From NCBI RefSeq assembly GCF_009834535.1, contig NC_045696.1:7194001-7258000 (forward strand): DNA of 64,000 nucleotides, read 5' to 3'. Under the pieces are notes generated by a model, which was not told the origin of the DNA, did not search any database, and saw nothing but the letters and a program-made list of their open reading frames with translations. The position numbers and the translations under genes are program-made. Below are positions 21,000-57,129 of this stretch, piece after piece (within the stretch, counting starts at the first letter, position 1; each line of letters opens with the position of its first letter). The DNA comes from Camelus ferus. Its lineage: Eukaryota.

Positions 21000-23900
21000 A
21001 ATCAGCCTGGGGAGCAGTAAGATTTAGAGAGCATTAAACAAACTACATTGGGTAGTATCTTCTCAGTAGTGAGGAACAGTAAGAGCCAACACAGAAACAG
21101 ACTCATAGACATAGAATACAAACTTGTGGTTGCCAAGGGGGCGGCGGGTGGGAAGGGACAGACGGGATTTCAAAATTGTAGAGTAGATAAACAAGATTAT
21201 ACTGTATAGCACAGGGAAATATACACAAAATCTCATGGTAGCTCACAGAGAAAGGAACATGACAATGAATATATATATGTTCATGTATAACTGAAAAATT
21301 GTGCTGAACACTGGAATTTGACACATTGTAAAATGATTATAAATCAATAAAAAATGTTTAAGAAAAAATTAACAAGAGTCAACACTGTGCTGATCTCACA
21401 TAAAAAATCTTAAGTATAACTCCAAAGATCAAATTATTTCCAAGTAACCTAAAGGTCCCAGAAAAGGGTCTAGAAAATGTATAGAAATGTAAAACTACAC
21501 AGCATTCAACAAGGTAAAAATTCACTAATGTCTGGCACACAATCAAAATTACTACACATGCAGAAACTGGAAAACACAACCTATAATGAGAAAAAAATCA
21601 ATCAATGGAAATTGATCCAGTCTTGACAAAGCTGTTACAGTTAGCAGGCAAGGACATTAAAAGAGTTATTATTATAACTATATTCCATACATCCAAATAG
21701 GTAAGGAGGGTTGTGCAAAATTTTTTAAGAGACACAAAAATTGAACTTGTACAAATGGAAACTACAAAGTATAAGATTAAAAATACATTAGATAGTGCAG
21801 AAAAACAGATGAGTGTACTTGAAGACAGCAATAAATTCCAACTGACTATTCAACACTTGAAACTGGCTGTCAAAACAGAAAAAATAAAAACATAAGAAGA
21901 GAGAGAGGTTAAATATAAAATTAATAGACATTCACTGAGTTCTGGGACAATCTTAAATAATGTAATACACACGTAACTAAAGTTCCTAATAGACAGGAGA
22001 GGGTGAACAGAAACAATTTTGAAAAAAGTCAGAAATTTTCCAAATTTGATAAAAACTATAAACCTACAGATACAAAAGTTCAACATGCTTTTAATGATAA
22101 AAAAAAAAATCTTAAAAAACAGTCAGAACAAAAAAGGACATTATATATTAAAGGAACAAAGATAAGGATTAAGTAAGATTTCTTGAAAGAAAAATGCAAA
22201 TCAGTAGACAATGGAGCAACATCTTAAATTGTTGAAAGAAAAAAGTGTCACTAGAATTTCTTGCCCAATGAAAATATGTCAGAAATGAAATAAAATACAA
22301 ACATTTTCAGGTATACGAAAGGTGAGAAAATGTGTCACTAGCAAACCTACACTATTAAAAAATGTAAAAGGAAGTACTGGGGATGAAGGAAAATGAGACC
22401 AGATGGAAATAAGACCTATACAAGCAAATAAAGAACAGCAGAAAAGGTAAATGCACACGGGTGAACGTGCCATAGTGTTTCTAATTAGTTAAGTTTCATT
22501 AAAAGATTATTAACTGCTTAAACAAAAATAAGGTAGTGTGGGGTTTCTAACATACATAAAAGTAAACCTTTGAAAAAGCAGTAAAAAGACCAGTAAAAGA
22601 TAAATGAAAGTGTATTACAGTGAGGTCAATATGCTGAATGTGAGGTAATTTAGTAGTAGTATTTGAAAGTAGACTGTTACCAGATAAAAAGTAACCACTA
22701 AATTAACAGAGTTAAAATGAGTAAGTCAACAAGGAAGAAAAATTAAATCATAAAAAATATTCATTTAATCCAAAAAGACAGAAAAAAAGAGGAAAGGGGG
22801 AATAAAGAACAGAGAGGACAAAGAGAAAATAAATAGGAGTTTGATTGAAACAAGCTTATCAATAATCACATTAAAAGCAAATACCCCAATTGAGAGGCAG
22901 AGATTTTCAGACTTGGGGGGGTGGGGCAGAGCAAGACTCAACTATATACTGCCTATAAAAGACACATTTCAAATACAGACATTAATACATTAAAAATAAA
23001 AGGTTGAAAAAAGATGTATCATGTTAACACTAATCAAAATTAAATGGAATGGCTATATTAATATGAAACAAAGTATTCTGCAACTCAAGGAATATATGTG
23101 ACTAGGAATGAAGGTCATTTTATAATGATAAGAGCATCAAATCAAGAGGATATATTCATCCTGAATAGGTATGCACCTATTAAAAGAGTTTTAAAATACC
23201 TGGAGCAAAAGAAATTATAAATTGCAAGAATAAACAATTATATTAAGAAATTTCATATCCTTATCTCAATAATTGATAGCACAAGCAGACAGAAAATCAG
23301 TAAGGATATAGGAACAATACTATCCATGAACTTAACTGACATTTAGATGACACTCCACCACAGAAGAGCTGAACAGTCTTTTCTAGCAACACAGCACATT
23401 TACCAAGATAGACCACATTATGGGTCATAAAACCAATCTCAATAAATTAAAGGGAATCAAGTCATACAAAATATGTTCTCTGATGACAATAAAATTAAAC
23501 TCGAAAGCAATATAGATATATGGAAAAAGTCCCCAAATGCTTAGAAACTTAATGACATACTTCTAAATTCCTGTGCCTCAAAGAAGATATCAAAGAACAA
23601 ATTAAAAGTATTCTGAACTGAAAGAAAATGAAATACATTATATTGATATTTGGGAGATACAGTGAAAGCAATACTTAGGTAGAAAATTATAGCACTAAAC
23701 ACCTCTATTAAAAAAGAAAGTTCTGAAATCAGTGACTTCTGTTTTCTACCTTAATAAACTAGGGAAAACAAAAGCAAATGAAATCATAAGTCAACAGAAT
23801 AAAGAAAATAACTAGCATCCAGAGTAGAAATGAACAAAATAGAAAAGAGAAAACTCAATGAAAGAAACCCCAGTATCTTCATAAACATAAGATGCAAAAA

Positions 23901-25510
23901 TTCTAAACAAAACTGTAGTAAACGGAATCTAACAATCTTTTAAAAAAGGGCAGTGTACCCAAATGCAGTATCAGTTTAATATTCAGAAATCAACATTATT
24001 CATCAAATTAACTAAACAAAAACCCAATCATACGATAATCGAAATTTTAAAACTATTCTTGATCAAAAAAGGAAAAGACTTTCAGCAAACTAGAAATAGA
24101 AGTCATTTTCCTCAGTCTGATATAGGACACTGACAGGAACTCCACAGCTAATATCATACTTAGTGGTGATGCAACATTTCCCTCTCTAAAATAAAGGAAA
24201 AGACAAGGATGTTCTTTTCACCACCTCTATTCAACACTGTGTTCTATATGTATTCTACATTCCGTGGAGTAGCCAGTGCAGTAATGCAAGAAAAGATATA
24301 CAAGGTAAGCAAACTGGAAAAGAAGCAAAGCTGTCTCTCATCATAGACAACAGGATCATCCCTGCAGGAAATCTGATGGAATCCACAAAAAGCTATGAGA
24401 CTCACCAAGGGTTTTAAGCAAGGTTGCAGAATACAAGCTCAATACAAGAAAATCAGTTGTAGTTTACATACTAGCAACCACAGTCAGAAACTGAAGCTTA
24501 AAAACCATTTTCAAAGGTTTCAAATGAATGAAATACTTTTATAAATCTGACAAAAGATGTGCAAGACTTATATACTTAAAATTAAAAAGTTAGAAAAATC
24601 AAAAATCTAAATAGAGGGAAAGCTACACAATAAGCATGAGTCTGAAGAATCAATATTGTTAAGATGTCAATTCTTCCTATGAAATTATCTATAAATTCAA
24701 CACGATCCCAATCCACAGCCTAGTAGGTTTCTTTGTAGAAATTGACAAAATGACTTGCCAATTCACATGGAAACACAAAGGACCTGGAAAAGTCTTAACA
24801 ATTTTGAAAAAGAAGAAGATTGTAGGACTAATACTACCACTACCAGATTTCAATACTTATTACAAGGCTGGTTGTAGTAAGAACAATATGGTATTGGCAT
24901 CAAGACAAATAGATTAATGGAACAGAACAGAAAGTCCAGAAACAGACCCACACACATATGGAAGACTGATTTTCAACACAAATTTTAAAAAGTAATTCAG
25001 TGGAGAAAGCATAGTCCTTTCTTCAAATAGCCCACCTGCAACCAAAAAAAAAAAAAATTGATCTTTTAGCTATGCCTTGCAGCACCATTTACAAATATTA
25101 ACTCCAAATGGATCACAGACTTAAATGTAAAACCCAAAACTATAAAATCTGGAGGAGGTGGGGAACACAGGAAACCTTTTAGACCTTGGGGACAATTAGG
25201 CAAACGTTTTTCAAAAGCAGGATCCACAGAGGAACAAATCAATGAATTAGACTTCATAAAAATTAAAAACATCTGTTTTTTAAAGACACTATTAAGAGAA
25301 TGAAAAGAAAAGCCATAGACTACGATAAATCTTTGCAAATCATACATCTGCTAAAGGACTTCTATCCAAGATAGATAAGGAATTCTCAAAACTAAATAAT
25401 AAAGAGAAGAAAAAAAAGTGGACAAAGATTTGAACAAACACTTCACCAAAGATGACACACAGAGGACAAACAAGCATTCCTAAGGCCAAGTGAAATACCA
25501 CTTCCACCAA
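21000..25510 (+). mobile_element. Ancient L1M (5' region, ORF1, ORF2), degraded, interrupted by a younger L1 end
   Basis: Continuous L1-like text, e.g. 'caaggtaaaaattcactaatgtctggc', 'ttaccaagatagaccacatt', 'caatattgttaagatgtcaattct', 'aactccaaatggatcacagacttaaatgtaaaacc', 'ggacaaagatttgaacaaacacttcaccaaaga'. Confidence 0.85.
21093..21373 (+). mobile_element. Young lineage-specific L1 3' UTR, 5'-truncated, with TSD
   Basis: 'agaaacagactcatagacatagaatacaaacttgtggttgccaagggg...aaatcaataaaaaatg'. TSD aagagccaacac (21081-21092) / aagagtcaacac (21374-21385). Highly similar to the copy at 31903. Confidence 0.9.
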
Positions 25511-29859: not shown

Positions 29860-31902
29860 CTGGAAAAAAATATTCAAAAAATTGTGAGCAACTACTTTGG
29901 TCAGGTTTGTAATGCCTCATTCTACAAAGTGAGGCTGCCATCACACTATTTTGCTGGACACCTTTTACAAAAGATTCAGTCCAGTAGATGTCTATACCCT
30001 CCAACTTAAGAGCAATCCTGATGCTTTTTCCTCCTTCTCATCAATCTGCTTGTAAAAATAGAAGGTAAATGGTTATTTAAAACTGGATTATTGACATAAA
30101 TTTTTAAATCCTTGGACTATTCACTACACTTGTGGATCAACTAATTCATATTTGGTGAATGGTCCCATCCTCTTCCTCTACTTCCACTCCCAAAAACAAA
30201 AAAGGCACTCAAAACACTATGAATTCTCACTCAACTCACAATATGTATGCTTTACTCCCTCATCAAATTATCATGGAAATCTACTAGCTGACTAATCAAG
30301 CCTTCATTTAGCTAAATGTTATCCAAATTAATTCACACTGCTAAAACAAACCAAAAAAAAAATCCCCACAAATTAACTTTGGGGTTAAAACCCCTTTTTG
30401 TATTATGCCTATCAAGATAATAAAATACAGCAATAGTTTCATCTTTCTTAAGCATCTTCACCCATACAAACTGCATTAAGTATTTTCTTGTCAATTTCCA
30501 TGTCATGGGAAATCAGGTGGACAGATTTAGGGTTATAACACAATTAGGGGTTACAGTCAGTCTGACTTTAAAAACGAACAATATAAAACATGCACTTCCA
30601 AGAGGCTTGGGTGTGAAGCATCTGAGACAAGCAGCCATCCTGCAAAGCAGCTGAAACCAAGGTAACAAGGAGTGGCCACAGGAGGTAATGCGCAAAAGGT
30701 GGACAGATCAAGGACAGAGAAAACAATGCTTCCAAACAACTCAAACCAAAAGCCACAAAGGCAGAAACTGAAGTACAGGTGTTGACTCTCAAGAGAGCTG
30801 TTTCTCACTTGGGCAACTTTAAGTTGTGTACTACACAGGTGGATGGCAGAAGGAAGGTTTTATTGGGATCATGAATGCCACCACCGAGTTCCTAATATAT
30901 ACTACCAGAATTCCCAGGTAAATAGAACCAAGGATAGCCACAATTGGAGAAATGCTTGAAAAAAATCCCTTAGGACGACCAACAAGAGAAAGAGCCAATA
31001 CTACACCCTGAAGCTCAGTTTCCTAAATTGAGGGAGGAGGGTGCTGTTAAAAAGAAAATCTAGAGCACTGGATAGACTGAGCACACTTGTTCATATCCTC
31101 CATAATACCCACCAACACAGCAGTAGAATCACAAAAATAAAATCAATAACTTAAAGCATGGGATGGAGACATACCAGTGAACCAAAGGTTCTGTAAGATT
31201 TCTTCAAGACAAATGGCTAATAGGATCACACCAATAATCAAAGGAGTATCAGAAAGACTCAGAGCTGAAAGCTGACACTAGGAACGTCAGCAGAAGTAGC
31301 AGGTACCATTCTGGGTGGAAAGTGAAAACTGGGGTAGGAGGGGCAGAAGCTGGCTTGATTACTAGACAGCTATCTGCTGCGTGGTCAGCCTCCCCCGCCA
31401 GCTCAAAGTATCTACCGCACAGTCAGCACACCGAGTCTAAGCTAGTCCAACACAGGTAAACAGTCACCCCCAAAGAAATGCCTTGGAAGACACTAAGCCA
31501 CCGGCGTAGGAAGGGCTAGACAGGCAGCAGCACAAGTTCATACTGCTCACTGGGACCTCCTCAACGGGGCAATGAAGATGAGAACCCTCCTGCCAGGACC
31601 CCAATTCACAGTCACTGAACTGAGGCCGTCAGTCCAGGGTCTCACCACAAATGCCAAACCCACACTCGTCCTCTTGCTTGGGAGAGAAGCTGATAATGGC
31701 AGAGGGAGTTCAGGATCTTGAGTTGGACAACAGGGGTTACAAGCAGTTTTTATTAAAATATTAAAAAAGAGGGCCTCACACAGATCTAAGGTGACAAGAG
31801 TCATAAGCAATTACCCTGCATTTGAGATTTTTTTTAAAATTTTCCTAGTAAAAAGTTGAATGCACATCATACAATTAAATCATTTTTTAAAAATCATCAT
31901 GA

Positions 31903-32124
31903 TGGGGGGTGGGAAGAGATAGACTGGGATTTCAAAATGTACAACAGATAAACAAGATTATACTGTATAGCAAAGGAAAATATATACAAGATCTTACAGT
32001 AGCTCACAGAGAAAAAAATGTGACAATGAATATGTATGTTCATGTATAACTGAAAAATTGTGCTCTACACTGGAATTTGACACAACATTGTAAAATGATT
32101 ATAAATCAATTAAAAATGTTTAAA
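31903..32124 (+). mobile_element. Young lineage-specific L1 3' UTR, 5'-truncated, with perfect TSD
   Basis: Similar to the 3' ~220 bp of the 21093 copy. 14-bp TSD aaaaatcatcatga at 31889-31902 and 32125-32138, preceded by TT (TT/AAAA endonuclease site). Confidence 0.92.
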
Positions 32125-33869
32125 AAAAATCATCATGACATGCACTACACCTTCAATCCCAGGGTTAACATTTCTCCTATGAATGGGACGAACTTAGTGA
32201 CATAATACTACATCTGCCTCTCTATGGGTCCTAATATACCATGTGCTTTTCCAGTGTAGTTTTTTTGTTTTTAATTTTCAACAGAACCTCAAGACAAAAT
32301 CACGGAACTCATTTACAGTTAAGGAAAGGTACACAAATGTATATTCTTATATACAATGTAAAAGTAACTGTCCGGTGGATAAATGCTGCAAGGTAAAAAG
32401 AAAGGGTACTAAAGCCCTTACTTTGTATCTTGGGAAATCAAGAGAAACTGATTTTAATTTTAGTAACAAAAAATTTAAAAGAACAGAAATTGGCAGAAAG
32501 AAAGGCAGCATAGGGAACTGTTTGATTTCATCTTTCTGGGAGGACAATCATTAGTTTTTTAAGTAATAAATTAGATCTATAAACACATTACTATATTTAA
32601 AGTGATGTAAGTAACCAAAGGAAGAACTTAAAAACTGAAGATTAAAAGTTTTACCACTAAGGAGTGACAATGAGGAAAAGGAAACTGGTATTTCATTTTT
32701 TACTTCCAGAATGGGTTATGTTTTATTAACATATGCCTGTAAATTGAGTAATTAATGCCTAATACAGAATAAATGTACAAATATGACTTTAATATGTCAG
32801 TTGAGCATGGCCTAAAAAATACTACCACCTCTAAGAGGAAAAAAACTGGTTGTAACCAGGAGGTTACAGAAGAAGCATGCATTCAACAAATACTTCTAGT
32901 TTTTGTAACTTCATACAAAGCAGATCTAGGTTTGTAATACAAAGGCAAATATTTACATTTTCAAGTGCCTGCTTTTTGAGTACTTGATTCCATGTGGATC
33001 TTGTGGATGGTGTGTCAAAATGCAAGTGAACTTATCTGTGCTTCCCTCTAATCTCTAACACAGACCTATTTAATAATATGGATCTCTACACTTTTTTAAA
33101 AGACTAGCATTTAAAGGATACACAGGACTCAACTAAAGAAAGACCAGTAAACAGTAGCCTGATGTCAAAGGAAAAGGGAGAAAAAGCTCTTAGAAAGAAA
33201 TTCAGTCTTAACGTATACTTTCGGAGTAGTTGATCTACGCTATCAAACCTTAAGCAATACCTTTTTACATCAGCTTTTTTAGTCTGGGTTTCCTTTTAAA
33301 GGGTCTTACTTCTTAAAACAAAATTTATTCAAAAAATGTTTTAAATAATGGCCAGATCTATCCATTTTCTAAAACTACAAAAACCAAACTCCATCAAATT
33401 ATTCCTACACTCAAAGCAAATATTTTATTTCACTTGTTTCCACAATTCAAATCACTGTTGATAATACACATTCTTCACAACTCATATTTGCTTGTTTAAA
33501 AACACATGTTCTTTTCTAAAGCAGTAATTACTTCCACAGACTTCTGAGAAAAGCTAATATAGATAAGCTTATTGTATCTTATCAAAACCAAAGAGTAAAT
33601 TATTTATGAAGCCCCTGAGAATCCCTTTAAAAGACAATACACAATACAGAAAATAAAAGGTCACCAACATCAACAGATTGTTAATGGGTTTATTCTCATT
33701 TGTTCAACAAATATTTGAGAAGCGATTATGTTCCAGGCATTACACTAATAAATAAGATCCAGTCCCTTCATACAAAACCTTAACATTTCTTATATTATAT
33801 AAAATGATACTATGAACAAAATTAAAACACAAATGTACTGGAAAATTTGTCAGAAGTAACTAACAATGC

Positions 33870-37750: not shown

Positions 37751-38728
37751 CAAATCAGCACACTTTAAAATAAATTTCTAAAGTAATTCACCTTCAAAAA
37801 GTTATGGTTCTGAATGCTCTGAATTTGCTCCAAGTTCAAAAGGACAGCATATCACTATGGTTAGTTTTTGATGATGCAGGGGAAGTTCACAATGTATGTT
37901 AAGCAATAAAAGAAAATATAAACAATACAAAAACAGATTCTACCCAAGCACACCAACCTGATTATTCAGGATAATCTTAATCAAAAATGGCATCAGAAAC
38001 AGCATCCTGGAAGGGAAAGTGCCACTGTGCAATGGGCAACAGAACTCCGACTATGTTTCCTTCCACTTATCTACAGTCTTATCAATTTCAACTTTTTTTC
38101 ACTGATATTGTATTACTTAGTAAACAGGGAGAAAAAATTAAAACCTGACAACAAAATAAATCTACTAGATTTACCATTCACCAGAAACAATCAATTCATT
38201 GAATTATTAAGCACAAAATCAGACTGCTTGGGGTTAAGAAATGAATGAGAGCTAAAGAAGGGAAAACATATTTTTAAAAGACCAGACACACAGGACTATG
38301 TGAAGAATGAATCCAAAAGGAGGCAAATGGGCAATACGCACCAAAATATTAAAATGTACACACAATTTGATTTACCCAATGCACCTGGTATATGAATGGG
38401 ATTAAAGAAGCTGGTTTTACTTAAATTTACAGATCTGATTTCTAACTGTTCTGTATTAATATGCCATACTCCTGTGATCACTGAAGAAGTATGCAAACTT
38501 TGCCCTACAAAACTCACACTTTAAAATGAGTAAGAGAATCTAAAATTAAAAACTCTGTCACATCAAATGGTTTTAAGCACTTAAATTCACAGAAATATAA
38601 CAAAAACAATATGAACCAATCAGGAGAATTTAAAATAAATTTCTAACGTTATTCATCCTCAGAGTTACAGTTCTGAATATTCCAGAACTATTTCAAGTTT
38701 GAAAACGACTAGCCTATCACTATTGTTA
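37751..38728. repeat. Old dispersed direct duplication, ~110 bp (37751-37863 and 38616-38728)
   Basis: Shared blocks aatcag..tttaaaataaatttctaa.gt.attca..agtta..gttctgaat..caagtt..agc.tatcactat.gtta; roughly three-quarters identical by eye. Confidence 0.75.
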
Positions 38729-52125: not shown

Positions 52126-52610
52126 TATACAGTTATATTTTATATTGTCACTCCTCCACTTTTTCAGTCTTATCTCCTATATAGGCTTTCCCCAAGTCTA
52201 CACTCTAGTCACAACGGACAAAGCCCATTCCCCAAATACTACTTTTTCGTTCAGACTGCTCCACGAGCCCTCCTTCTTTCCTGCTTGTCAACACCATGCT
52301 CCAAGTCCAACACCAACGCTTTCTCCTCCAGAAAGTCTCCCACTAGCAGCCCCTACAGACACCACATCCCCCTCAACCCTGCCATAGCATTATTTATACC
52401 CCGATTATGCTCCAGCTTCACTCTGCCCTAGACTGTAGGTAAGTAACAAACCACATGCTTGTTGACATCTAGCCCTACAAAGTGGGAAAAGCCTTGTTCA
52501 TCTCACCTTTCGGAAGGCCAGCTTCCTCAACTATAGCAGACTCACAATATAGGAGGGAAAGAAAGCCATACTCAACAAACCACATCACCTCTAAGAAATA
52601 CCTGCTTTTG

Positions 52611-54326
52611 CAATCAGAAAACTACTAGAACTCATCAATGAATATAGTAAAGTTGCAGGATACAAAAGTAATATACAGAAATCAGTTGCATTTCTATACA
52701 CTAACAATGAAATAGCACAAAGGGAAATTAATGAAACGATACCACTCACCATCATGCCGAAAAGAATAAAATACCTGGGAATAAACCTAACCAAGGAGGC
52801 AAAAGACCTTTAAGCCAAAAACTATAAGACACTGATGAAGGAAATTGAAGACAACATAAACAAATGGAAAGATATACCATGTTCTTGGATTGGAAGAATC
52901 AGTACTGTTAAAATGGCCATACTGCCCAAGACAATTTACAGATTCAATGCAATCCCTATCAAGTTACCAACAACATTCTTCACAGAGCTGGAACAAAAAA
53001 TGTTAAAATTTGTATGGAAACACAAAAGACCTCGAACAGCCAAAACAATCTTGAAAAAGAATGGAACTGGGGAAATCATGATGACTTCAGACTATACTAC
53101 AAAGCCACAGTAATCAAAGCAGTATGGTACTGGCACAAAAACAGACACATAGATCAATGGAACAGGAAAAAAAAGTCCAGAAATAAACCCATGCACGTAT
53201 GGTCAATTAATCTATGACAAAGGAGGCAAGAATATACAATGGAGAAAAGACAGTCTCTTCAATAAGTGGTGCTGGGAAAACTGGACAGCTACCTGTAAAA
53301 GACTGAAATTAGAACATTCCCTAACACCATGTACAAAAATAAACTCAAAATGGATTAAAGACCTAAATATAAGACCAGATACTATAAAACTCCCAGAAGA
53401 AAACACAAGCAGAACACACGTGGACATACATTACAGCACTATATTTTTTGAACCAGCTCCTGGAGTATTGGAATTAAAAGCAAAAATGAACAAATGGGAC
53501 CTAATTAAACTTAAAAGCTTTTGCACAGCTAAGGATACCACCAACAAAACGAAAAGACAACTTACAGAATGGGAGAAAATATTTGCAAATGATGTGACTG
53601 ACAAGGGACTAAATTCCAAAATATACAAACAGCTCATACACCTTAATATCAAAGAAACAAGCAACCCAATCCAAAAATGGGCAGAAGACCTAAACAAGTG
53701 ATTCTCCGATGAAGACGTTCAAATACCCAATGGGCACTTGAAAAAATGCTCAGCATCGCTAATTGTCAGAGAAATGCAGATCAAAACTACAATGAGGTAT
53801 CACTTCACACTAGCCAGAATGGCCATCATTGAAAAGTCTACAAATGATAGATGCTGGAGAGGGTGTGGAGAAAAGGCAACCCTCCTACATTGTTGGTGGG
53901 AATGTAGACTGGTGCAGAAACTATAGAGGACAGTATGGAAGTTCCTTAAAAAACTGAAAATAGACTTACCACGTGATCCAGCAATCCCATTCCTAGGCGT
54001 ATATCCAGAGAAAAATAAAATTAAAAAAAAACACATGCATCACAATGTCCATAGCAGCACTATTTACGATGGCCAAGACATGGAAACAATCCAAATGTCC
54101 ATCAACAGATGACTGGACAAAGAAGATGTGGTATAGTTATACAATGAAACACTACTCAGCCATAAAAAAAGAATAAAATAATGCCACTTGCAGCAATATG
54201 GACAGACCTGAAGACTGCCATTCAAAGCGAAGTGGGCCGGAAAGAGAAAGAAAAATTCCATATGACATTATTTATATGAAGAAATCTAAAAAATAACAAA
54301 AGTAATAAGGACACAAATGAATTATT
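52611..54326 (+). mobile_element. 5'-truncated L1: C-terminal ORF2 (frameshifted) plus the start of the 3' UTR
   Basis: ORF track gives classic ORF2p peptides: [97 protein letters not shown]1 similarity stops at 'acacaaatgaattatt'. Confidence 0.95.
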
Positions 54327-54704
54327 ATTTTGATTTCCTGAATATGTGTAAGCACACTTGACAGTCCTTTACGATTGGATTACTGCATTTTGTTGATTCT
54401 TATTTTGTGGTTGGCTTTATTCCTTTGATAAATATGTTAAGTTTAAAAAGCTGAAGATCTAATCTGTTCTTAGAAACAAGAATCAGTACATATATGAAAA
54501 CTAAAAAAAATGTGTGTATACTGTATATATGTATTTGCATGCAATATACTGCATATGTGCAGTCAAACTGTAGTAATTCTACATAATAAAACTGGGGGGA
54601 AAAAAGAAAAAAGTTATATGAATACCATTTTTGATAGGTATTTCTACGCTTTCACCACAGGATATTAACAATGCAGCAATTCAATAAATATATACACACA
54701 CAAA
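54327..54704 (+). other. Non-L1 sequence co-inserted with the L1 (3' transduction or chimeric retrotranscript)
   Basis: Lies inside an 18-bp TSD, aagaaatacctgcttttg (52593-52610) / aagaaatatctgcttttg (54705-54722). AATAAA at 54585 and 54683, each followed by an A-rich tract. Confidence 0.7.
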
Positions 54705-54796
54705 AAGAAATATCTGCTTTTGGTTGCTTCATTAAAACGAGTTAAGTTTTTTCAGTATTTAAGATGAGACAATAAATAAGCACAGTTAAGTCATAC

Positions 54797-54891
54797 CTGC
54801 AATTTAATGATGGAACAAGTGACTCTGCTAACTCATTGCAATGCAAAAGGCACAAAATCTGGGATTTCTGATACAAAGAATAGTATGTGAG
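54797..54891 (-). other. Candidate exon (95 nt), probably 5' UTR; best exon candidate in the window
   Basis: Acceptor TACTTTTTTTAG|CTCAC and donor TGCAG|GTATGA in non-repeat sequence. Contains a minimal ATG-AGT-TAG ORF. One frame is open (LTYYSLYQKSQILCLLHCNELAESLVPSLNC), but I do not recognise it. Confidence 0.5.
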
Positions 54892-57129
54892 CTAAAAAAA
54901 GTATTTTCTATAATTACCAACTCACTGTAAATGACATAATCAGATAAAGCATGGGCATAGTTCTTGTTTCTTGTCCTTTGGGATTTTTTTTTCCTGTTAA
55001 ATACCAAGCCTCTTTTCTAAAAAGAATATTTTTAAATGTGGCATTATCTGTGTTAGTAATGTTAGTAAACAAGGTGGGTGAAATACTGATGACTGTGGAA
55101 GCAGGAGGACAGGGACACGAGGGCTCATTATATTACTCTACTTTTATGTATGTTTCACGTTTTCCATAATTTAAGAAATTTTTAGATAAAAGTGGTATAT
55201 GAAATAAATATTAGAAATACAATTATTTAAACTAAAATAAATGAGATGCTTGACAAAAAAAGCTAACTAAAAGAAATTTGATAAAAGATCTGATAATATT
55301 TCATGACAAGAGAACTTACAAACAACCATGACTAAGCAAAATCTGCTTTTTTTAATTTTTTATTTCTCTTTTAGGAGTGGAGAAAGGGATTAAAACTGTT
55401 TGGGAAACTATTTTACATAAAATGTTGCTTTAGATAAATCACTAACAAAGATTTACCTATGTAAGCTTTGGTTTCTGTAAAATTTTTCCAGGGACATTTA
55501 TTGTATTAACAAATGCACAGCTGTGACGTGACAACTCGGGGAGTTGGGGTGAAATTCCCTCTAGGGTGTCATAAGCTAGCTCTGCGGGATCAATAAAGCA
55601 CAAACATCCTAGTGCTAAAGTCCACAAGACAGACACATCCCAGCACTCGTTTTAGCAGGTAGCAATCTCTAGCCACTCTTAGAGGGAAGAAAAAAAAAAG
55701 GAACATTTAACAACATGCCCCAAAACTTCCTTTTGCTATCCAAAGTCATTATTTGATTTTTGATTTTCCTACTTGTTAACATGACACAGAACAACACATC
55801 TTTTGTGGTATCTAATACAGATGAATTATATAATAACACTGAATTTATGATCAAATTTAGAGCAAGAGGCCTTCAATTTCATTTAATTCAAATCAATCCT
55901 TTATGTGCCTTACTTAAGAGTATCTGAAAGTAAAATAAACACTGAAAATATATGATTATCAAACCAATGATAAAAGCAAATTATTTAATTGCCATTTTAA
56001 CTGAGGATTCAAATTCCACTGTCACACAGTAACGTGTGCAAATATAATGCATATCTGTACAACATAAGCAGACGTATAAAAAAATGAAAATACAGAGGAA
56101 GGTGTCCAGAAAGACAACTGCAAACCTTTAGCAGCAGTATCTCTGGTTAGGACAATGGGGCCGAGACATGGTGGGGTAGGAGTGGATAGAAAGTTGAAAG
56201 AGGGACAAATATGCCTACTTCCACATGCAATTCAGAAATGCCATCATTCAACACCTATTGAAACAACTGAAAAATAATTTTAACTACAAACACACATAAT
56301 ATCCTAAAAATCAGATGATGTCATGATATGAAGAGCTTCAGACTCATCATTCATTTCTTCAACAACTATGTGCTGAGGACTGGACACATAAGGGTGAGAT
56401 TTACTATCATGTGTCTGCCCTCAGGGGACTCACAGTCCAATGCGGGGAAACAGACACAATCACACTGGTAGCAAACGACACTCAGGATCATGAGAGCAAG
56501 GACAGACTGCTACAAGGAAAGAGGAATGAGAGGAACCAATTTAGATTTGAGGAAGGGGAAGTATCAGAAATAGTCTTACCAAGAACTTGACAGGTGAGAC
56601 CTGGATTTGTAGTCTTTGTATGTGTAAGGCCTCTTAAGCTCACAATTCTTTCTATGTCTAGATCCGCATAAAGAGAGGCGGTGAGAAAATTCAGAACTTC
56701 TGAGAAAGTAATAGGAGGGTAGGGATCTGGAAGTATCAAGGCTGCTCAGCCAAGACTATGAAAGACTAAAGGACCAGTGACTAGACTGTGATTAATTAGG
56801 CAAGTCTCAAGGATGGAATGAACTGACTTGCTCCACATAGTTCAAGAAGGCAGGACTAAAATCAAGAATAAGAAGAATGTTACAGGAGAACAAGCTGAGA
56901 ATGAATAAAAGGATGAAGGCATCCAACAATGGGGAAAGCCGCTTCATGAATGACAGCCCCCAGTCACTGCATGCATGTGCAGAACTTGGGACCCATGGCA
57001 TCTGCCTTGGCTATGGTTCCAACACAAAGTGGAAAGTGGGGTACAATTTACCCTAGAGCCCACCCCTGTGGCCTGACCTTCACCCAAAAGGTCAACATCA
57101 CTACAATATTATTTTAAAATCTGCCTGCT

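What the first reader, a model, noticed from the sequence alone, without database searches (positions are those of the whole stretch)
52593..54722. One retrotransposition event fusing a 3'-incomplete L1 to ~380 bp of foreign polyadenylated DNA
Seen: an 18-bp direct repeat with one mismatch (aagaaatacctgcttttg 52593-52610; aagaaatatctgcttttg 54705-54722) brackets the L1 ORF2 piece plus 54327-54704. L1 similarity stops at 'acacaaatgaattatt', just before the 'agaaacagactc...' 3' UTR that the copy at 21093 carries, so this element lacks its own terminal UTR and polyA. Known: TPRT makes TSDs of this size; L1 3' transduction and template-switch chimeras both exist, but ordinary transductions keep the L1 3' end. 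Inference: either RT began on a foreign polyA RNA and switched to L1 RNA, or the source L1 had lost its 3' end and borrowed a flanking polyA signal. A later deletion across the junction is also possible.
Basis: partly seen in the sequence, partly recalled or inferred. Interest (0 to 1): 0.7.

Follow-up and report, generated by a model that had tools for sequence, protein, structure and literature searches.

The report
Truncated L1 with short 3' transduction
This is an ordinary broken L1 jumping-gene copy: most of its supposedly foreign tail is the normal end of a second, abundant L1-type family, and only about 90 bases look carried along from a parent site; the one curiosity is that this family's end lacks the G-rich stretch usual in mammalian L1.

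Summary
The 18-bp target-site duplication is real (17/18). It brackets a 2,094-bp insert whose 5' edge is an L1 ORF2 truncation point near residue 714. The 378-bp 'foreign' piece is mostly not foreign. With public contigs laid on 54180-55800, 54320-54594 has about 600-12,000 times the flank depth in two DNA runs and ends in poly(A) at 54594 in 48 and 60 contigs. Other copies share the same junction with the L1 post-ORF2 motif. So this element has its own 3' UTR, AATAAA and decayed A-tail, of a different type from the copy at 21093. Only 54613-54704 (92 bp) is low-copy. It sits between two A-tails with a second AATAAA 16 nt before the TSD, the layout of a short 3' transduction; its donor was not found. 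RNA-library contigs run flat through tail, TSD and flank, so they show this locus, not a donor mRNA. A template switch onto foreign RNA at this site is not supported. By-product: the high-copy UTR has no G-rich tract and no significant alignment to the other UTR type, so a lineage may have replaced its 3' UTR. That may already be in Repbase or Dfam, which I could not search.

The parts
52593..52610 (+). Left target-site duplication (18 bp); the bottom strand reads 5'-TTTCTT/AG-3' at its start, an L1-endonuclease-like site
   Evidence: the endonuclease consensus TTTT/AA is recalled
52611..54289 (+). 5'-truncated L1 ORF2, from about residue 714 of human ORF2p to the C-terminal stop (54287-54289); broken by several stops and frameshifts
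   Evidence: phmmer to PDB ORF2p: 711-780 (E 2e-20), 905-1078 (E 3e-59), 1189-1237 (E 2e-16); frames
54290..54319 (+). A-rich linker and post-ORF2 motif; this copy lacks 4 letters that other copies have behind 54319
   Evidence: table 4 (2, 6, 1 and 1 contigs; depth 336 of 681 in X13 and 870 of 1576 in X17) and table 7 (loose ends before 54320 in X1 and X4, 3 contigs each)
54320..54594 (+). High-copy family 3' UTR ('type 2'): 28% GC, no run of more than 2 G, AATAAA at 54585-54590
   Evidence: tables 2, 3, 7, 8; ratios; composition
54595..54612 (+). Decayed first poly(A) tail (G5 A6 G A6), at the place where other copies go into their A-run
   Evidence: table 7: loose A-rich ends behind 54594 in 48 (X13), 60 (X17) and 11 (X1) contigs; window letters
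54613..54704 (+). Low-copy 92-bp segment, probable 3' transduction: AATAAA at 54683-54688, then a 16-nt TA/CA/A remnant of the terminal tail
   Evidence: depth 1.0-3.1 times the flank; AATAAA in that position in 1.8% of shuffles; donor not found
54705..54722 (+). Right target-site duplication (17/18 identical)
   Evidence: contigs run through tail, TSD and flank with 0-2 substitutions and 0-2 gaps (table 8, records 6, 14, 23, 31)

Best explanation
One ordinary L1 TPRT insertion: a 5'-truncated copy of a subfamily with an AT-rich 'type 2' 3' UTR, carrying a partnered 3' transduction of about 90 bp. Steps: (1) Inferred: the source element was transcribed through its weak AATAAA (54585) and genomic A-tail into its flank, and was cleaved just after a second AATAAA (54683). 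(2) Site shown, chemistry from established knowledge: ORF2p nicked the bottom strand at TTTCTT/AG and primed on the new A-tail. (3) Shown: reverse transcription covered 2,094 nt (flank, old A-tail, family UTR, ORF2) and stopped near ORF2 residue 714. (4) Shown: repair left an 18-bp TSD. (5) Shown: the copy then decayed (stops, frameshifts, degenerate tails). The UTR-to-L1 junction is inherited from the family; it was not made at this locus.
For: TSD beyond chance and abutting the ORF2 truncation. Summed contig depth over 54290-54619 is 811-12,087 times the flank median in X13 and 602-8,927 times in X17, against 1.5-3.1 times over 54620-54729. At 10 of the 20 variant places listed within 54320-54594, at least 95% of depth in both DNA runs has the same non-window letter, from 59-109 contigs each (34 further rows not shown). 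A-rich loose ends lie behind 54594 in 48, 60 and 11 contigs. Long contigs match only the last ~150 nt of the UTR, as 5'-truncated copies would (records 12, 13). The junction with four extra letters is seen in all 4 runs, at about 58 and 75 times flank depth in the DNA runs. Loose ends before 54320 read A-run plus the post-ORF2 motif. One X4 contig (depth 170) joins 54275 to 54438. The second AATAAA lies 16 nt before the TSD (chance 1.8-3.9%). Human data: about 25% of L1 insertions carry 3' transductions, 248 of 349 were under 100 bp, and they are often flanked by poly(A) on both sides (PMC13009371 passages).
Against: No listed contig spans ORF2, UTR and poly(A) in another copy, so the ORF2-UTR link at family level is pieced together from overlapping evidence; 5,860 pieces were not shown. 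The tool warns that summed depth is no copy number. Part of the peak at 54400-54454 may be short spurious matches: 20 and 22 contigs have loose ends before 54396 that read like antisense ORF2 (reading from recall). No donor for the 92-bp tail was seen. Its depth excess in DNA runs (17.8-32.3) is only at or a little above flank noise (up to 16.7 and 20.7) and is absent in X1. The terminal tail is only 4-6 A. No empty site was observed, and the left TSD was not in the laid stretch.
Confidence: 0.7

Rival explanations
1. The high-copy 3' end belongs mainly to a non-autonomous family (HAL1-like or another L1-tail-derived element). This insertion would then be a chimera: reverse transcription began on that family's RNA and switched to an L1 RNA at the shared post-ORF2 motif.
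For: Junction depth (about 58-75 times flank) is far below the depth inside the UTR (up to about 10^4 times), and no listed contig spans ORF2 and the UTR.
Against: Low depth at the junction is expected, because the variable A-run breaks contigs and 5' truncation thins copies upstream. One X4 contig at depth 170 links the ORF2 end to the UTR. The linker and motif sit right after the ORF2 stop, with no trace of a second junction.
Confidence: 0.12
2. The 92-bp tail is a later, separate insertion (a short retrocopy or filler) into the L1's A-tail/TSD junction, not a transduction.
For: A 9-nt A5-G-A3 word occurs on both sides (54601-54609 and 54701-54709) and could be a short nested TSD (letters). 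No donor was found.
Against: Other family members also have a G interruption in the first A-run (loose-end consensus behind 54594), so the left word is probably inherited. The tail is not a repeat, and short transductions are common. All 4 runs, among them organisms A and B, carry the tail.
Confidence: 0.1
3. One reading: a 3'-incomplete L1 was fused at this locus to about 380 bp of foreign polyadenylated RNA or flank, by template switch or from a 3'-deleted source.
For: The TSD brackets everything, the UTR does not align to the 21093 type, and RNA runs hold the stretch.
Against: The piece is two things: a high-copy family end with a shared junction, and a 92-bp low-copy tail. The RNA-library contigs that match best are this locus: X1 covers 54402-55789 at flat depth 8.56 with 2 substitutions and 2 gaps, and X4 covers 54438-55232. 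They do not stop at 54704.
Confidence: 0.03
4. The 18-mer is a chance repeat, 54613-54704 is native flank, and the true TSD was lost.
For: The terminal A-tail is very short.
Against: Chance is about 4e-6, the left copy abuts the L1 5' edge and begins at an endonuclease-like site.
Confidence: 0.02

Closest known systems
Partnered L1 3' transduction (short class; PMC13009371 passages; Pickeral et al. 2000 seen only as cited in PMC5381506)
   Same: 5'-truncated L1, own PAS and A-tail, under 100 bp of unique DNA, second AATAAA 10-30 nt before the end, tail, TSD
   Different: Old, decayed germ-line copy in a non-primate; source element not identified; terminal tail nearly gone
Mammalian L1 3' UTR with G-rich polypurine tract (Boissinot & Sookdeo 2016, PMC5381506, section 13 read)
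   Same: Follows the ORF2 stop and ends in AATAAA plus poly(A); the 21093 and 31903 copies in this window have the G-rich tract
   Different: The type-2 UTR has no run of more than 2 G, at most 8 G in 30 nt (20 in type 1), and 28% GC. That paper names rabbit as the one mammal surveyed that lacks the tract; 'camel' and 'alpaca' do not occur in its text
L1 chimeras with cellular RNAs (U6/L1 and others; bioRxiv 10.1101/2025.02.02.635956, abstract, outline and passages)
   Same: One TSD pair around two sequence types
   Different: In the passages seen, the extra sequence is fused 5' of the L1. Here the 3' partner is a high-copy family end with a shared junction, not a unique RNA
Repbase camelid L1 entries such as L1-2_Vpa (name seen in a table of PMC6726744)
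   Same: May be the family that carries this UTR
   Different: Sequence not seen; membership untested

Membership tests
L1 TPRT insertion | ORF2 homology, 5'-truncated | tested here: met
   (3 of the ORF pieces searched, all 3 hit ORF2p)
L1 TPRT insertion | TSD of 10-30 bp abutting the 5' end | tested here: met
L1 TPRT insertion | Endonuclease-like target site | tested here: met
   TTTCTT/AG on the bottom strand; loose fit to a recalled consensus
L1 TPRT insertion | Empty site in an outgroup | not testable with these tools
   no genome held; all 4 laid runs carry the filled 3' junction
L1 subfamily 3' UTR | High copy number, family-wide letters, poly(A) end | tested here: met
   tables 2, 3, 7
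L1 subfamily 3' UTR | Contiguous with ORF2 in other copies | tested here: inconclusive
   shared junction motif in 4 of 4 runs and one joining contig; no listed contig spans the whole unit
L1 subfamily 3' UTR | G-rich polypurine tract typical of mammals | tested here: not met
   the listed majority letters of other copies create no G-run (table 3, partial). The tract is typical, not obligatory: rabbit lacks it
L1 subfamily 3' UTR | Match to a named Repbase or Dfam consensus | not testable with these tools
   no repeat library available
Partnered 3' transduction | Non-repeat DNA between an internal and a terminal A-tail, inside the TSD | tested here: met
   the terminal tail is a remnant
Partnered 3' transduction | PAS 10-30 nt before the end | tested here: met
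   AATAAA ends 16 nt before the TSD; chance 1.8-3.9%
Partnered 3' transduction | Donor locus behind a source L1 | tested here: inconclusive
   slight depth excess in 2 DNA runs, near flank noise; no donor among 32 listed pieces
L1/cellular-RNA template-switch chimera | Partner is a unique cellular RNA and the junction is private to the locus | tested here: not met
   partner is high-copy, the junction is shared, and RNA contigs are this locus

The most novel reading that the evidence does not exclude
An L1 lineage of this genome (called camel in unchecked earlier notes) replaced everything after the post-ORF2 motif with unrelated AT-rich DNA, by transduction plus deletion or by template switch. 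It lost the G-rich tract and still amplified to hundreds or thousands of copies, at about the same time as a lineage that kept the tract (copies 82-90% alike versus 86.6%). That would be a natural test of whether the conserved G-tract matters, and a case of 3' UTR recruitment beside the well-known 5' UTR recruitment.
Probability: 0.3. Interest if true: 0.5.

Novelty: new member of a known kind. Interest (0 to 1): 0.22.

Why it matters
The locus itself is ordinary and shows a trap: an unfamiliar L1 3' UTR looks like foreign DNA when only one UTR type is on view. The lead worth keeping is the family. If it is an autonomous L1 lineage without the G-rich tract, it adds a second mammalian exception beside rabbit (PMC5381506). 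It would also allow a within-genome comparison of copy number, truncation and transduction rate between lineages with and without the tract.

Tried and rejected
Own-genome search: no genome held. Exact-pattern scans for other copies found 0 in metagenome contigs (2 of 2 scans), viral contigs and genome contigs; blastn against plasmids found no match. These collections are not mammalian, so the blanks say nothing. Host gene: Pfam on 300 of 305 stop-free frames of 55 aa or more gave one sub-threshold hit (DM9, 20.3 bits against a cut-off of 26.2); the 5 frames left out were minus-strand frames over the L1. Rfam: 0 matches. Homology of the type-2 UTR to type 1 was not significant: local, 40 and 18 of 200 shuffles as good; last 85 nt global, 89 and 46 of 500. 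Remote homology of the 3' ends is thus neither shown nor excluded. Type-2 UTR as an inverted or repeated piece of ORF2: 34, 3 and 5 of 100 shuffles as good for the three queries tried, and the alignments are short and A-rich; not accepted. The idea that high RNA shares meant a young retrocopy of a donor mRNA was dropped. Earlier findings by sequence, near place, words and relatives: nothing.

Full report
Observation. These are the only two matches at up to one mismatch in the window, against a shuffle mean of 0.01. It is the best of all candidate TSDs tried around the L1 5' edge, and the chance of such a match within 2 kb is about 4e-6. The left copy starts at TTTCTT/AG on the bottom strand, a loose fit to the L1 endonuclease site (consensus recalled). 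The three ORF pieces I searched all match solved human L1 ORF2p, at residues 711-780, 905-1078 and 1189-1237, and the C-terminal frame ends at 54287-54289. So a 5'-truncated, multiply broken ORF2 starts right behind the left repeat and is complete at its 3' end. One TPRT event for 52611-54704 (2,094 bp) is well supported.

What the 'foreign' piece is. No genome is held, so I used sequencing runs. 20 of 24 listed runs hold 54327-54704 or part of it, 17 with half or more of 37 words, from 11 studies; the best share is 0.84. I laid 4 of the 24 (X13 and X17, DNA by the tool's guess; X1, RNA by guess; X4, RNA library) on 54180-55800 at 80% likeness. The left TSD and most of ORF2 were not in that stretch. 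The piece splits in two. Over 54290-54619 the summed depth is 811-12,087 times the flank median in X13 and 602-8,927 times in X17; over 54620-54729 it is 1.5-3.1 times in those runs and 1.0-1.1 times in X1 and X4. The tool warns that this depth is no copy number, and part of the peak at 54400-54454 may be short spurious matches. Other tables agree, though. At 10 of the 20 variant places listed in 54320-54594, at least 95% of depth in both DNA runs has one and the same non-window letter, from 59-109 contigs each (34 further rows were not shown). Behind 54594, 48, 60 and 11 contigs (X13, X17, X1) leave into an A-run. Two long X13 contigs match only the last ~150 nt, as 5'-truncated copies in other flanks would. 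The window has AATAAA at 54585-54590 and a decayed A-tail at 54595-54612. So 54320-54594 is the polyadenylated 3' end of a high-copy retroelement family.

The junction is inherited. In all four runs, contigs cross 54319/54320 with four extra letters (2, 6, 1 and 1 contigs; about 58 and 75 times flank depth in the DNA runs). In X1 and X4, three contigs each that match from 54320 on are preceded by an A-run and the same post-ORF2 motif. ORF2-end contigs leave into an A-run behind 54278 (69, 85, 8 and 16 contigs), and one X4 contig of depth 170 joins 54275 to 54438. Against this: no listed contig spans ORF2, UTR and tail in another copy (32 pieces shown, 5,860 not), so a non-autonomous carrier of this 3' end stays open.

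The RNA signal is this locus. X1 has one contig over 54402-55789 at flat depth 8.56 with 2 substitutions and 2 gaps; X4 has one over 54438-55232. X13 and X17 have contigs from 54576 to 54951 and 54902 with no difference from the window. Tail, right TSD and flank are therefore real and contiguous in organisms A and B, and nothing listed ends at 54704 as a donor mRNA would. Whether those runs show pre-mRNA or DNA cannot be told from contigs.

The 92-bp remainder. 54613-54704 lies between the family A-tail and the TSD and is low-copy. It has an AATAAA ending 16 nt before the TSD, seen in 1.8% of 5,000 shuffles and at 3.9% of sampled window positions. In human tumours about 25% of L1 insertions carry 3' transductions; 248 of 349 were under 100 bp, and 274 of 349 had a PAS near the end (PMC13009371, passages only). 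The layout fits. A donor was not found: the depth excess in the DNA runs (17.8-32.3) is at or little above flank noise (up to 16.7 and 20.7) and absent in X1. A later nested insertion is the main rival.

Mechanism. Read-through of a type-2 source L1 into about 90 bp of flank (inferred); nick and priming at the A-rich site (site shown); reverse transcription of 2.09 kb ending in ORF2 (shown); 18-bp TSD (shown); decay (shown). Confidence 0.7 for the whole, about 0.9 that 54320-54594 is a family end and not locus-specific foreign DNA.

Comparison with what is known. It works like, and on the tested features is, an L1 insertion with a short partnered 3' transduction; the donor test is inconclusive. 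It fails the test for an L1/cellular-RNA chimera. The family UTR is the unusual part: 28% GC, no run of more than two G, at most 8 G in 30 nt against 20 in type 1, and no significant alignment to type 1. Boissinot and Sookdeo (PMC5381506; passages and section 13 read) describe a G-rich tract in mammalian L1 3' UTRs and its absence in rabbit. Sookdeo et al. (PMC5872511, passages) describe recruitment of 5' UTRs and coexistence of lineages with different 5' UTRs. Nine pieces that I picked from the 32 listed are 82-90% like this copy, about as alike as the two type-1 copies, so the two UTR types may be of similar age (inference). Searches listed no paper describing camelid L1 3' UTR types. The Camelus TE survey (PMC8605555; abstract, outline and passages) showed none in what I saw, and its supplements were not readable and may bear on this. 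A name L1-2_Vpa appears in a table of PMC6726744 (passages), so the family may well be catalogued in libraries I cannot search.

Verdict. The locus is an ordinary member of a known kind; interest 0.22. The most novel reading left is a successful L1 lineage that swapped in a G-tract-less 3' UTR (probability 0.3, interest 0.5).

Noticed in passing
window 21081-21385 and 31889-32138: Two short 5'-truncated L1 3' ends of the G-rich UTR type, each with its own TSD (11/12 and 14/14), 86.6% alike.
   Followed up: yes
window 54320-54594: The type-2 UTR folds better than shuffles as RNA (-58.3 kcal/mol, z -2.57, 2 of 200 shuffles as good), partly through TA/TG-rich hairpins in its 3' half; no covariation test was possible.
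   Followed up: partly
window 54396 (loose ends): 20 and 22 contigs in the two DNA runs that match from 54396 on are preceded by letters that read like antisense L1 ORF2 (recalled). Either spurious short matches or a hint that part of the UTR derives from inverted L1; alignment to this window's ORF2 was not convincing.
   Followed up: partly
window 55005-55347 and 54762-54982: One X4 contig (depth 10) joins 55005 to 55347 with 17 other letters between, and one X17 contig skips 54762-54982 (side 21); probably short chance matches in T-rich sequence.
   Followed up: no
whole window: The + strand is A-rich and C-rich over most of the window and RNA-library contigs cover the locus evenly, which fits an intron of a minus-strand gene; no exon was identified.
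   Followed up: partly
window 24386-25147: An older L1 ORF2 fragment, 66-82% like the element studied here.
   Followed up: no
window 37753-37863 and 38618-38728: A 111-bp direct repeat pair, 75% alike; not identified.
   Followed up: no
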